The notes under the pieces: model-generated | The model's input: only the letters and a program-made list of their open reading frames with translations | Told to the model about the DNA's origin: nothing | The model's database searches: none | Shown: positions 44,378-52,688 of the stretch, piece after piece | Numbering within the stretch: position 1 is the stretch's first letter | Layout of the letters: every line of letters begins with the position of its first letter | Position numbers and translations under genes: made by a program | From: the human T2T-CHM13v2.0 reference genome, Homo sapiens | DNA length: 64,000 nucleotides | Direction: 5' to 3' (one strand) | NCBI RefSeq assembly: GCF_009914755.1 | Contig: NC_060927.1

Positions 44378-44660
44378 CAAGCACAATGGCCACCATTTGG
44401 GTTGCCTTCTTCTCCCGAAGTGGCACTCCCCGAGGTTGCAGGGGCCCCAGCTTCAAAGATGTCGATAATCTGCCATTGCTGAGTTTTCGAACTTCTAAGC
44501 TGAGCTTGGGCGCTATGGTGGGACTCAGGGAATTCCGAGTCTTCTCCTCTCTTTTCAACTCTCCTCCTCTTTCTTGGAAGCCTGGTCCACCCAAGGCAGT
44601 GTCCTGGCAGATGCTGTAGTAACGCTTCAGCTCCAGATGTGCCGGGTCAGGAGAGAGGGT
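44378..44660 (-). CDS. DRD3: Dopamine D3 receptor exon 6 (third intracellular loop to start of TM6), 283 nt
   Basis: cctgcag|ACC CTC...GTG CTT G|gtaagt; [20 protein letters not shown]...[15 protein letters not shown]; phase 0 to phase 1, matching the neighbouring exons. Confidence 0.97.
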
Positions 44661-44723
44661 CTGCAGGTGTGACAAGAGGGAATCTTGACATTTCTGGGGG
44701 TATTGTTTATCTTCTGAATGTTC
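44661..44723 (-). other. DRD3: Intact 63-nt in-frame 5' extension of DRD3 exon 6 from an upstream acceptor ([21 protein letters not shown])
   Basis: ttctctggccctttcag|GAA CAT TCA...; open for 21 codons; resembles the recalled rodent D3 sequence. Confidence 0.8.
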
Positions 44724-46995: not shown

Positions 46996-47572
46996 GAAAT
47001 ATGTTAACTTTTCTGGTATGGAGGGGGAGGTGTGTGTGTGCCCAACTTGAACTTCTTTTCATGTTTGAAGAATCAGACTATTGTGTCAGTCTTGAACAGG
47101 AGGCAGAACTCAACTCTTCAACTCCCATTACTGATGCCATAAAAGCCAGATATTCACTTCATACCTCCATTCCCATGCAGCTAGAGCTCAGGCACATGCA
47201 CAAAGCCCAGTCAATTGCAGATTCACACCTGAGACTTTGAACTGGAACTTGTGAAGCAGGGAGACTTCAGAACTCCTCTAGTAGTGGTGGCATTCAATGT
47301 CCAGTGTGTTAGGTTTTCTAACTAGATTATTTCTTAGGCATGAATAGCATCTTTCTGAAGCTGTTCTTCAGCCTTCTCATTGAGCCTGTGAGCCACCTGA
47401 CAGCTTTCCAGTAAATTTGTTTTCTACGTAAGTTATTCAGTGTCAGCAACAAAAACCCCTCGCTTTGGTTTCCTTAGTTCAAGGAAGCAGTCTTCTAGGT
47501 ACACAGAACTGGCACATTGTACATACTCAGAATGAATGAATGAATGCAAGCGGTCTTCAAGACTATTTAGTG

Positions 47573-48982
<1,410 letters not shown>

Positions 48983-50230
48983 CCAAGATTATGTTTACAA
49001 TTAAACTGGCACCTACTGATCTTCTTAAAGTGACAATATTTGACTTCTAACGCATTATTTCTAAAACTAGGGGATGGGAAACAAATTCTTGGGATTGCCT
49101 AAGAAATCTCATATTAGCTGGGTGCAGCCCAAGAGTTCAAGGCTGCCATGAGCTGTGATCACACCACTGCACTCCAGCCTGGGGAACAGAGTGAGACTCT
49201 GTCTCAAAAACAAAAACAAAAACAAAAAAACCTCATATTTGAAAACATTGATCTAGTATACCCTGTTTCCATTTTACAGATATGGAAATTCAGTCCTATA
49301 GTAGGAAAATGATTCTTCCAAGATTATATATTGGTGAGTGTATTTTTCAGCTCTGTCTGCAAAACCTGATCACTACTTCCATGACTGACATGAGGAAACA
49401 CTGGATTCCTCTGGGTCTGGCTGGCAGAGCCCTCCACTCCCAGATGGCAGGACAGAACCTAATTCTCCACACTCTTGGAAATGCCAGTCTCTTGGCTGTC
49501 TGATCTCTCTTTTGTATTCAATATTTTTCCTCCTCTTGGCCTTGAAGCCTCCTTAGACCTTGGATCAGCCATAGGCAACTTTGAGCTGCATAGCTATTAT
49601 CGTTTAAAATGATTATCTCCAATTACCACACCAGGCCTGTGTAGAAAGTCATTAACTATACTGAGATTGAACAAAGCTCAGACCTTAATTATTACAAATT
49701 TTTGAAGTTTTATTTCTAATGTGGAATTCAGAGAGGAATACTGTTCTCATATCTAACACCTCCAGACTCCACTCTGCACTCTGCTAGCTGGGCGAGGCAG
49801 GCCTGGCTTGAATTGGAAGAACAAGGCTAATGGTGACCATGAAGTTGTCTTGGTTTTTCCCACATTCAGTGGTAAATATGGCACTTGAAATTTTCCTTTC
49901 TCTGCCTGGTTTTTGCTCTGTCCATGTGTGTTCCCTTGACATCTGTTTCCTCTAATGCAGGTGGCCTTGGATGGCATTGTCACACCGTGTGCAAGAGTCA
50001 TTGGCTCCAGTCACTAAGGTCAAGTCCAATAGTCATATGCTTTCTCAATATCTTCTGATGAATTCTATTCTGAAGCTTAAATTAGGAAGAATTTCAGATC
50101 TTGTCTTATAGATATATGTGTGGGAATCAGGGTAAGGTTTCATTCTGGGGTGAGAGTAGAATCAAGATAAGCCAGTATTGTGGGAAAAGGTCTCTTATTC
50201 TTTCTCTATGATCAGACATGGCCCACTTAC

Positions 50231-50308
50231 CATTTTTCCTGTGGCATGTGATGGAAATCAGGCCCTTACTGACAACTGCTGAATGGGGTGCAGGTGCAGA
50301 CAAGAAGA
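50231..50308 (-). pseudogene. DRD3: Vestigial or poison 78-nt DRD3 exon (SSCLHLHPIQQLSVRA*FPSHATGKM) in intron 5
   Basis: CTAAC branch site 50341-50337; ccttcttctacaccccctgcccag| acceptor; ATG|gtaagt donor; phase 0/0; TGA at 50258-50260; resembles the recalled rat D3 loop. Confidence 0.85.
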
Positions 50309-50562
50309 CTGGGCAGGGGGTGTAGAAGAAGGAACAGTTAGTTGTGGGTCTAGCCATGTCATTGATAGCCATGGGACATGATAATATTTTGAATGCAATA
50401 CTTTCATATCCTCAGCCTTGGGTCTTGATCTCCTCTTTCATGGGGATTAATAGTCTTGTTTCACTCAAGCCTTGGGACTTCAACTTAAGAGTCTGACCTT
50501 CATTCATACTTTTGACATCATCAAAGACCTTAACAGGTCATCAGAGATAATGTAGGTCATCA

Positions 50563-51251
<689 letters not shown>

Positions 51252-51280
51252 TTACTCTGTCTATGGAGCCCTTTCCTGAG

Positions 51281-51637
51281 TGTATTAGCCTGTTTTCATG
51301 CTGCTAATAAAGACATACCTGAGACTGGGTAATTTATAAAGAAAAAGAAGTTTAATGGATTCACAGTTCCATGTGGCTGGGGAGGCCTCACAATCATGGT
51401 GGAAGGTGAAAGGCACGTCTTACATGGCAGCAGACAAGAGAAAATTTGTGCAGGGAAACTCCCCCTCATAAAACCATCAGATCTCGTGAGACTTATTCAC
51501 TATCATGAGAACAGCAAGGGAAAGACCCACCCCCATCATTCAGTTACCTCCCACTGGGTCCCTCCCATGACACATGGGAATTGTGGGAGCTACAATTCAA
51601 GATGAGATTTGGGTGGGGACACAGCCAAACCATATCA
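51281..51637 (-). mobile_element. Solo THE1 (THE1B-like) LTR
   Basis: Minus strand TGATATGGTTTGGCTGTGTCCCC...GCTAATACA; 5-bp TSD CTGAG at 51276-51280 and 51638-51642. Confidence 0.9.
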
Positions 51638-52491
51638 CTGAGCATATTGGGTTTTCTCTTCTATAACCTCCAGAGCACTTCATAATTGAGTGCTTAATTG
51701 TCTTCACCTCACATTTGGCAAACATCCTATTCAGCTCTGGGATCTTCATTAACATTGAGTGGAGGGGTGCTTTATTTGCTTTTCTAGATTCTAAGCTCCA
51801 TGAAGGCAGATGCTGTTTAATGTTACCACTGTCCCTTCCCTAGTAGATTTCAAGTGATCGGTATATATCCATTCATGCTTCAAGTACATCGTGGGAAAAC
51901 TACTAAGTGCCAGGCAATGGGGTAAGGAGAAATTAAAGCCCTAGCAATTAGAAGATCATTGCAGAGGCAATGACATTTCTTTTCAGAGCCTAGAAAGATC
52001 CAATAAAATGCTTTATCAGCACCCTATCCCACCAGCTTGTCAGTTCCTTGACACACGGACAGATCCAGTAAGGAAAAAAGGCTTTGATGGACCCCAGTGA
52101 TTCTTGGCATGAGTGGTTTAGACAAAAAGTCAGTTCTGGGAACCCACCAGCAGTGCAAGGTACAACTGCTGCACTTAAACTTCAAAACCTGTGGGACATC
52201 TGAGCTGCTGCCCATTTGGGGAAAATGAAAGACTTTGAAGGGAAGCAGAACAAGCCCAGGAGCTCTCCAATCACTTTGCCAGGTAAGGCAGGCTCTAGAG
52301 GCAACTATCAATGTTTTCTTGAGATTGGATTTCCTACCTTCAAAGCGCAGCCAAAATTAGCAGATTCCAAAGTCGGTGTCAGATTTGTGTCTCCAATTTA
52401 GCTAAACGGCAAAATCATGCACTGCTGGACACAGGCTGGGAAGTCAGGAGATTGGGTGTTGTCTTCCCTCTACCCCCTCCAGGGTACTTAC

Positions 52492-52688
52492 TTGTTGGGG
52501 GAAGCCAGGCCTGACACTGTTGCACTGACTGTTCTGTCGAGTGAGGATCCTTTTCCGTCTCCTTTGTTTCAGCACCACATAGATTCTGGCATAGACAAGG
52601 ACAGTCACTCCAAAGGGCAGGTAGAAGGACACCACTGAAGAGTAGATGACAAAATCAGGGTTGGAGATGGAGCAGACAGTGGGGTCCC
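52492..52688 (-). CDS. DRD3: Dopamine D3 receptor exon 5 (ECL2, TM5, start of ICL3), 197 nt
   Basis: ctcatccacag|GG GAC CCC...CAA CAA|gtaagt; (G)[65 protein letters not shown]; TM5 catechol-binding serines. Confidence 0.98.

What the first reader, a model, noticed from the sequence alone, without database searches (positions are those of the whole stretch)
50231..50341. Hidden 78-nt DRD3 exon with intact splice signals but a single premature stop: lost exon or poison exon
Seen: on the minus strand there is a CTAAC branch motif about 30 nt upstream, a pyrimidine tract, cccag|, 26 codons (SSCLHLHPIQQLSVRA*FPSHATGKM) and |gtaagt. It is symmetric phase 0 and fits between exon 5 (...FPQQ) and exon 6. 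Recalled: rat D3 is 446 aa versus human 400 aa, and carries [26 protein letters not shown] at this point (18/26 identical, from memory). The TGA sits at an Arg, consistent with CGA>TGA CpG decay. Inference: there are no indels and the splice sites are consensus-grade, so loss was recent or the exon is retained as an NMD-coupled cassette. Inclusion would truncate D3 at about 257 aa, after TM5. It also lies at about the same position as the alternatively spliced DRD2 long/short exon. I do not know whether this has been reported.
Basis: partly seen in the sequence, partly recalled or inferred. Interest (0 to 1): 0.9.

Follow-up and report, generated by a model that had tools for sequence, protein, structure and literature searches.

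The report
Dead ancestral exon inside human DRD3
Intron 5 of the human dopamine D3 receptor gene still holds the 78-base exon that rodents, dogs and macaques use to code 26 extra residues of the receptor's third inner loop, but in humans a stop codon and several odd substitutions mark it as an evolutionary relic, which explains part of why the human receptor is shorter.

Summary
Window 50231-50308 (minus strand) is a 78-nt, phase-0 segment with a CTAAC branch motif at -30, a 17/20 pyrimidine tract, an AG acceptor and an ATG|GTAAGT donor. It has one in-frame TGA at 50260-50258.

It is the orthologue of the 26-codon exon in the third intracellular loop (ICL3) of other mammals' D3 receptors:
- tblastn with five placental D3 proteins hits exactly this place, between exons 5 and 6 (E 1e-8 to 1e-6; 18/26 identical to rat).
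- 43 of 116 mammalian D3 models carry the exon.
- Its frame is open in two Old World monkeys, Macaca fascicularis and Cercocebus atys. The stop therefore arose after the ape/monkey split.

The human copy looks unconstrained. It differs from macaque at 6/26 residues, against 3/159 in the flanking exons (p=3e-4). Four human states are seen in 0 of 41-43 orthologues.

Best reading: a vestigial exon. The 21-codon rodent-type extension of exon 6 (44661-44723) is still open in human.

A poison-exon role could not be tested, because no RNA data were available. The lack of conservation speaks against it.

Ten literature searches found no report of the vestige, but the 1990s gene-structure papers are not held. 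Interest is modest.

The parts
50309..50341 (-). 3' splice region of the vestigial exon. It holds the CTAAC branch motif (50341-50337, branch A at -30), a pyrimidine tract (17/20 at -23..-4) and the AG acceptor (50310-50309). No other AG lies in between.
50231..50308 (-). 78-nt vestigial exon (26 codons, phase 0-0). It is the orthologue of the ICL3 exon found in 43 of 116 mammalian D3 models.
50258..50260 (-). In-frame TGA at codon 17. Of 43 orthologue models, this position is R in 41, K in 1 and Q in 1 (Cercocebus).
50225..50230 (-). GTAAGT donor, preceded by exon bases ATG. It is the same hexamer as the donors of exons 5 and 6.
52492..52688 (-). DRD3 exon 5 (TM5 and the start of ICL3). It ends ...GFPQQ on a codon boundary and is the upstream splice partner.
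   Evidence: hub table
44378..44660 (-). DRD3 exon 6. It starts TLSPD on a codon boundary and is the downstream splice partner.
   Evidence: hub table
44661..44723 (-). 63-nt open in-frame extension of exon 6 ([21 protein letters not shown]) behind a ctttcag acceptor. It is the orthologue of the 21 residues that follow the 26-residue exon in the long D3 forms of other mammals. Together the two segments make 47 of the extra residues of the 446/447-aa forms.
50569..51191 (+). Alu-like repeat block in the intron upstream of the exon (upstream in the sense of transcription). It is antisense in the DRD3 pre-mRNA and forms inverted repeats with the block at 47566-48981.
   Evidence: hub table
47566..48981 (-). 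Alu-like repeats in the intron downstream of the exon, sense in the pre-mRNA. The arms 48677-48862 and 50828-51013 are 186 nt long and 80% complementary.

Best explanation
The segment is a vestigial (dead) exon. It is the human orthologue of an old 78-nt, phase-0 exon of the D3 receptor gene that codes 26 residues of the third intracellular loop. The exon is coding in rodents, carnivores, bats, ungulates, afrotherians, a loris and Old World monkeys. It is recognisable in a marsupial and in a much more distant D3-like protein. Many mammals have gene models both with and without it, so it behaves as a cassette.

On the lineage to humans, after the split from Old World monkeys, the exon stopped contributing to the protein. 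It then accumulated a nonsense change at codon 17 (most simply CGA to TGA at a CpG) and replacements at otherwise invariant residues. The human 400-aa receptor is made by splicing exon 5 directly to the inner acceptor of exon 6. This leaves out both the 26-codon exon and the still-open 21-codon extension, which accounts for the shorter human loop.

Shown here: position, phase, homology, open frame in monkeys, and excess change in human. Inferred: the order of events (skipping first, then decay), the CpG route, and that the intact splice signals are simply too young to have decayed.
For: - Sequence and signals.
- Frame fit between exons 5 and 6.
- Homology by tblastn: 5 of 5 placental D3 queries hit 50231-50317, in exon order, with E 1e-8 to 1.2e-6. 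The marsupial query hits the same place at E 0.27.
- Orthologue sequences: the rat model has [26 protein letters not shown] followed by [21 protein letters not shown]. The macaque 426-aa model has [26 protein letters not shown]. The Cercocebus 273-aa model has [26 protein letters not shown].
- Distribution among 116 models: 31 have exon plus extension, 12 exon only, 9 extension only, 64 neither.
- Relaxed constraint: human and macaque differ at 6/26 residues in the exon, against 0/65 in exon 5 and 3/94 in exon 6 (Fisher p=2.8e-4). The human residues at positions 5, 12, 17 and 21 are seen in 0 of 41, 43, 43 and 43 orthologues.
- Age: an unnamed D3-like protein only 51% identical to rat D3 aligns through the exon.
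- The hub's RefSeq table lists no human transcript that uses 50231-50308.
Against: - No transcript data could be consulted, so some inclusion of the exon in human mRNA is not excluded.
- Its splice signals are as good as those of the neighbouring real exons: pyrimidines 17/20 against 15-19/20, and the same GTAAGT donor.
- No ape sequence and no orthologous DNA was available. The stop is dated only to after the ape/Old World monkey split, and synonymous changes could not be counted.
- With 26 codons the excess of change rests on small numbers.
- The monkey and many other sequences are automatic gene models, not cloned cDNAs.
Confidence: 0.8

Rival explanations
1. Poison exon. The exon is still recognised in a regulated fraction of human DRD3 pre-mRNAs. 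Inclusion brings in the TGA, the transcript is removed by nonsense-mediated decay, and receptor output is tuned in this way.
For: - The acceptor, branch motif and donor are intact and of consensus grade.
- The stop lies 27 nt before the exon's end plus 283 nt of exon 6, that is 310 nt upstream of the last exon junction (coordinates and the hub table). This meets the standard >50-55-nt rule for NMD (established knowledge).
- The exon is used in other mammals.
Against: - There is no conservation beyond that of the neighbouring sequence. Instead there is an excess of change at otherwise invariant residues, unlike typical functional poison exons.
- No RefSeq transcript uses the exon (hub table).
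- No paper was found (only the search listing, and passages of one irrelevant paper).
- Intact signals are expected by chance after about 25-30 million years (inference from recalled rates).
Confidence: 0.08
2. Splicing noise. The relic is occasionally included because its signals are still good. This gives rare unproductive transcripts, or a 256-residue TM1-5 fragment, without any selected function.
For: - The splice signals are as strong as those of the real exons.
- Its ancestor was an efficient exon in other mammals.
- The Cercocebus model shows that annotation pipelines do pick the exon up in a monkey.
Against: - There is no direct evidence of inclusion in human.
- Inverted Alu-like repeats flank the exon and could favour skipping (the effect is an inference).
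- This rival is compatible with the best explanation rather than opposed to it.
Confidence: 0.3
3. Chance exon-like stretch with no relation to rodent Drd3.
For: Exon-like signal combinations do occur by chance: 9 in the window, 6 of them with <=1 stop.
Against: - tblastn gives E 1e-8 to 1e-6 with five placental proteins at exactly this place and in exon order.
- Length and phase are identical and there are no indels.
- The stretch is single-copy.
Confidence: 0.01

Closest known systems
The 26-residue ICL3 exon of rodent Drd3 (present in the rat 446-aa-type model P0041 and in the mouse 'D3Short' isoform P30728-2, P0084)
   Same: - It has the same place between the ...GFPQQ exon and the next exon, the same 78-nt length, and the same phase.
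- It is 18/26 identical to rat.
- The 21 residues that mouse D3Short lacks correspond to human 44661-44723.
   Different: The human copy has a TGA at codon 17 and four residues seen in no orthologue. No listed human transcript uses it (hub table).
DRD2 exon 6, the 87-nt cassette that separates the long and short D2 receptors
   Same: It has the same alignment column for the upstream exon end (11 residues after the last aligned pair in both genes), the same phase 0-0 and a similar size of 29 versus 26 codons. Its donor is GTG|GTAAGT.
   Different: - There is no detectable sequence similarity. Global alignment z-scores against shuffles are 0.4-1.25, with p 0.12-0.34, for 4 D3 versions.
- The D2 exon is open and in use in human. 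That it is the long/short exon is recalled knowledge; the sequence comes.
Poison (NMD-coupled) cassette exons such as those of splicing-factor genes
   Same: A cassette whose inclusion brings in a premature stop well upstream of the last junction.
   Different: Known functional examples are strongly conserved and are seen in transcripts. Here conservation is worse than in the flanking exons and inclusion has not been shown.
Lineage-specific exon death (vestigial or pseudo-exons left in introns after a cassette falls out of use)
   Same: It is an ancestral coding exon with an open frame in sister lineages. In one lineage it carries a nonsense change plus relaxed constraint while the splice signals linger.
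   Different: Nothing material; this is the class it fits.

Membership tests
Orthologue of the mammalian D3 26-codon ICL3 exon | Lies between the ...GFPQQ exon and the TLSPD/PLSPG exon, on the gene's strand, in exon order | tested here: met
   For all 6 queries, the tblastn hits run in order 60.5 kb, 52.5 kb, 50.3 kb, 44.7 kb and 42.1 kb.
Orthologue of the mammalian D3 26-codon ICL3 exon | Significant sequence similarity to the exon's peptide | tested here: met
   E 1.0e-8 to 1.2e-6 and 65.5-69.7% identity for 5 of 5 placental queries. The marsupial query gives E 0.27.
Orthologue of the mammalian D3 26-codon ICL3 exon | Same length (78 nt) and phase (0-0), flanked by AG and GT | tested here: met
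Functional coding exon of human DRD3 | Open reading frame | tested here: not met
   TGA at codon 17.
Poison exon (NMD-coupled cassette) | Inclusion places a stop more than 50-55 nt upstream of the last exon junction | tested here: met
   27 nt plus the 283-nt exon 6 gives 310 nt (hub table).
Poison exon (NMD-coupled cassette) | Exon is included in transcripts, and inclusion isoforms rise when NMD is blocked | not testable with these tools
   No RNA-seq or EST resource was available. The hub's RefSeq table shows no such transcript.
Poison exon (NMD-coupled cassette) | Sequence conserved at least as well as the neighbouring coding exons | tested here: not met
   Human and macaque differ at 6/26 residues here, against 3/159 in exons 5 and 6. 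There are 4 human-only states. The test is at protein level only, because no orthologous DNA was available.
Paralogue of DRD2 exon 6 | Same intron position and phase in the D2/D3 alignment | tested here: met
Paralogue of DRD2 exon 6 | Detectable sequence similarity of the two cassettes | tested here: not met
   z 0.4-1.25 against 2000 shuffles each. Such short peptides give little power.

The most novel reading that the evidence does not exclude
The relic is still spliced into a meaningful, regulated share of human DRD3 transcripts. In this reading a hominoid-specific nonsense change turned an ancestral coding cassette into an NMD switch, or into the source of a 256-residue TM1-5 fragment comparable to other truncated D3 forms. 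That would give humans a way of setting D3 receptor levels that rodents and monkeys lack, which matters for how rodent D3 pharmacology transfers to humans.
Probability: 0.08. Interest if true: 0.7.

Novelty: new member of a known kind. Interest (0 to 1): 0.33.

Why it matters
It gives the genomic reason for part of a long-known species difference. The long D3 forms of other mammals carry 47 residues in the third intracellular loop, 26 from this exon and 21 from the exon-6 extension, that the human 400-aa receptor lacks. The third intracellular loop is the part of the receptor that faces G proteins and scaffolds. Rodent and dog D3 receptors used in drug work therefore differ from the human one at a signalling surface. 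The difference is fixed in humans for the 26-residue part, because the exon is broken. It is not fixed for the 21-residue part, which is still open. The result also shows that the monkey exon is intact, so macaque and human may differ here. As a piece of biology it is an ordinary case of exon death, and the poison-exon idea remains untested.

Tried and rejected
Literature searches (all 10 used). These returned nothing:
- 'dopamine D3 receptor' + 'third intracellular loop' + '46 amino acid' (0 papers)
- 'DRD3' + 'poison exon'
- 'DRD3' + 'pseudoexon'
- 'dopamine D3' + '46 amino acids' + human + rat
- 'human D3 receptor' + 'rat D3 receptor' + 'amino acids' + 'loop'

These returned papers, none on this exon:
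- D3L/D3S search (4 papers)
- 446/400 amino acids (5 papers)
- Fishburn/short isoform (17 papers, 12 listed; all listed titles except one review are about D2 or unrelated topics)
- 'DRD3' + 'novel exon' (1 paper, on ROBO1)
- 'DRD3' + 'nonsense-mediated' + 'exon' (12 papers; judged by listing only, except the one below)

Passages read:
- PMC5562332 says the gene has 6 exons and that D3S lacks 21 residues.
- PMC7830622 says the prevalent human isoform has 400 aa.
- PMC9832385 had nothing relevant.
- PMC13441968 was irrelevant.
- PMC1815380 is not held.
- The original cloning and gene-structure papers of 1990-1996, which I recall by author only, are not in the library. I cannot say they do not describe the relic.

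Other steps that led nowhere:
- Rfam scans of 49500-51000 and 47000-52400 found nothing at the exon, only Alu-type SRP and miRNA-like matches nearby.
- D2/D3 cassette similarity was not detectable.
- The search of 50%-identity representatives gave unnamed proteins only. One (P0127) was useful. P0120 is a frameshifted human-like variant unrelated to this exon.
- Dating the stop within apes was not possible, because no collection here holds primate DNA.
- MaxEntScan, SpliceAI and gnomAD were not available.
- The first count of the extension used too low a score threshold, which let in false matches to the ...LELKRYY... stretch. It was redone.
- The column counts used a pattern that fixed some residues. 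They were redone without that bias.

Full report
**What is there.**
Read on the minus strand, the window shows a textbook exon outline.
- A CTAAC motif lies at 50341-50337, which puts the branch A 30 nt before the exon.
- A pyrimidine-rich run follows with no intervening AG, then the acceptor AG at 50310-50309.
- The exon itself is 78 nt (50308-50231), followed by GTAAGT (50230-50225).

One search translates the 78 nt as SSCLHLHPIQQLSVRA*FPSHATGKM: 26 codons with one TGA at codon 17 (50260-50258). The annotated DRD3 exon upstream (52492-52688) ends on a whole codon with ...GFPQQ. The exon downstream (44378-44660) begins on a whole codon with TLSPD. A phase-0, 78-nt cassette therefore fits.

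**Is it more than chance?**
The signals alone would not settle it. In the 64-kb window there are 29 GTAAGT sites. Nine segments have the form AG...GTAAGT with length a multiple of three (48-300 nt) and at least 15/20 pyrimidines upstream. Six of these have at most one stop; one is this segment and one is real exon 5 with an upstream AG.

The homology does settle it. A protein search seeded with the human exon-6 region returned 114 mammalian D3 proteins among 404 candidates. I ran tblastn with six of them against the window:
- All five placental queries (Rattus rattus, Grammomys, Lycaon, Macaca fascicularis, Nycticebus) hit 50231-50317 on the minus strand.
- E-values were 7.6e-7, 6.8e-7, 1.2e-6, 1.0e-8 and 3.0e-7, with 65.5-69.7% identity.
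- There were no gaps, and the hits ran in exon order between the hits to exon 5 and exon 6.
- The marsupial query hit the same place only weakly (E 0.27).

The rat model reads [26 protein letters not shown] at this point. The stretch 50180-50400 is single-copy in the window's own genome. Rfam finds nothing at the exon.

**What it is.**
I scored 116 D3 models without a pattern filter:

| Content of model | Number of models |
|---|---|
| 26-residue exon plus the following 21-residue segment | 31 |
| Exon only | 12 |
| 21-residue segment only | 9 |
| Neither | 64 |

The 64 with neither include the 399/400-aa forms and shorter variants.

The lengths 446/447, 425/426, 421 and 399/400 aa seen correspond to these four combinations. 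In many species both long and short models exist, so the exon behaves as a cassette across mammals. These are mostly automatic gene models, however.

The 21-residue segment also has a human counterpart. The 63 nt directly upstream of exon 6 (44661-44723) are open and in frame. They read [21 protein letters not shown] and follow a ctttcag acceptor. The 26 and 21 residues together make 47 residues. They account for the difference between the 446/447-aa forms and the human 400-aa form.

The exon is old. An unnamed D3-like protein only 51% identical to rat D3 aligns through it.

**State of the human copy.**
Two Old World monkeys have an open frame:
- the Macaca fascicularis 426-aa model reads [26 protein letters not shown];
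- the Cercocebus atys 273-aa model reads [26 protein letters not shown] and then runs on into the intron.

The stop is therefore younger than the split of apes from Old World monkeys. I could not date it further, because no collection here holds primate DNA.

Human and macaque differ at 6 of 26 residues in this exon, but at 0 of 65 in exon 5 and 3 of 94 in exon 6 (Fisher p = 2.8e-4). Human and Cercocebus differ at 5 of 26. Comparing with the other mammals to find the ancestral residues, five of the six differences fall on the human side. The human residues at positions 5 (H), 12 (L), 17 (stop) and 21 (H) occur in 0 of 41, 43, 43 and 43 exon-bearing orthologues. Position 12 is F in all 43.

At codon 17 macaque has R, Cercocebus Q and human TGA. 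A CGA ancestor explains all three by single transitions at one CpG. By contrast, the 21-codon extension in human is 21/21 identical to that of a bat model (P0010).

The pattern is that of an exon released from coding constraint on the human lineage. It is not that of a conserved regulatory element.

**How it most likely works.**
It no longer works. The human pre-mRNA is spliced from 52492 to 44660, which skips the relic and uses the inner acceptor of exon 6.

The splice signals of the relic are as good as those of the real exons: 17/20 pyrimidines against 15-19/20, and the same GTAAGT donor as exons 5 and 6. With only a few per cent divergence expected since the monkey split (a recalled figure), a few dozen signal bases would usually survive unchanged. 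Their integrity is therefore not evidence of use (inference).

Why the exon is skipped is not shown. One observation is that Alu-like repeats of opposite orientation bracket it. There are plus-strand matches at 50703-51164 and minus-strand matches at 47599-48981. One pair of arms (48677-48862 and 50828-51013) is 186 nt long and 80% complementary. Such pairs can loop out an exon. This is a lead only, because inverted Alu pairs are common.

**The poison-exon alternative.**
If the exon were included, the stop would lie 310 nt upstream of the last exon junction: 27 nt to the end of the exon plus the 283-nt exon 6. The transcript would meet the usual rule for nonsense-mediated decay. Failing that, it would give a 256-residue fragment ending after TM5.

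That much is met. The defining features are inclusion in transcripts and a response to NMD block. I could not test these. The hub's RefSeq table lists no transcript with this exon, and conservation is poorer than in the neighbouring exons. I put a regulated role at about 8%. Detectable but functionless inclusion is more likely, at about 30%.

**Relation to DRD2.**
I located DRD2 in the own genome and fetched its ICL3 region. I then read its 87-nt exon, which codes 29 codons ([29 protein letters not shown]) with a cacag acceptor and a GTAAGT donor.

In the D2/D3 alignment the upstream exons end at the same column. Eleven residues follow the last aligned pair in both, after one single-residue gap. 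Both cassettes are phase 0-0. The two peptides show no detectable similarity (z 0.4-1.25 against 2000 shuffles for four D3 versions). Common descent of the two cassettes is therefore plausible from position but is not shown.

**Is it known?**
- the human receptor is about 46 residues shorter than the rat one in the third loop;
- mouse has long and short forms that differ by 21 residues.

A review passage confirms the 21-residue short form and a six-exon gene (PMC5562332). Another gives 400 aa for the main human isoform (PMC7830622).

None of my ten searches found a paper that describes the relic exon in the human intron or a DRD3 poison exon. The library lacks most subscription papers of the 1990s, where the gene structures were compared. 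I therefore file it as a new member of a known kind (lineage-specific exon death) and allow that it may already be noted in older print or in genome-browser cross-species tracks.

**Verdict.**
- The homology and the lost-exon reading are supported.
- The poison-exon reading is untested and disfavoured by the conservation pattern.
- Interest is modest (0.33). The finding neatly explains a known species difference in a drug-target receptor and notes that the 21-codon extension remains usable in human, but it is an ordinary evolutionary event.

Noticed in passing
window 44661-44723 (minus), acceptor AG at 44725-44724: The 63 nt upstream of DRD3 exon 6 are an open, in-frame extension behind an intact acceptor (pyrimidines 15/20). 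They are 21/21 identical to the same segment in a bat D3 model. Models of 421 aa that use this extension without the 78-nt exon exist for pig, fox and bats. The hub table lists no human transcript using it. It may be an unannotated +21-residue human isoform, or it may be conserved only because it holds the branch site and pyrimidine tract of the 44660 acceptor.
   Followed up: partly
window 47566-48981 and 50569-51191: Alu-like repeats of opposite orientation bracket the vestigial exon. The inverted arms 48677-48862 and 50828-51013 are 186 nt long and 80% complementary. They could pair in the pre-mRNA and favour skipping or back-splicing. This was not tested.
   Followed up: partly
L009:3978-4064 (minus; own genome C11): The DRD2 87-nt cassette exon lies at exactly the same alignment column and phase as the D3 78-nt exon, but shows no detectable sequence similarity to it.
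   Followed up: yes
protein P0118 (Cercocebus atys model, 273 aa; cluster of 7 members): This monkey gene model includes the 78-nt exon with an open frame and then reads six codons into the intron before stopping. It is therefore a truncated D3 model ending at this exon. Whether it reflects real transcripts or an annotation artefact is unknown.
   Followed up: no
protein P0120 (327 aa, unnamed representative, 97% identical to macaque D3 over residues 1-240): A human-like D3 variant that leaves the normal frame just before the end of exon 5 and continues in another frame of exon 6. It is one of the frameshifted splice forms and is unrelated to the vestigial exon.
   Followed up: no
window 50050-50115 (plus): A weak sub-threshold Rfam match to a C/D-box snoRNA family (SNORD77, 24.9 bits against a gathering score of 35, E 0.12). 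It is probably chance.
   Followed up: no
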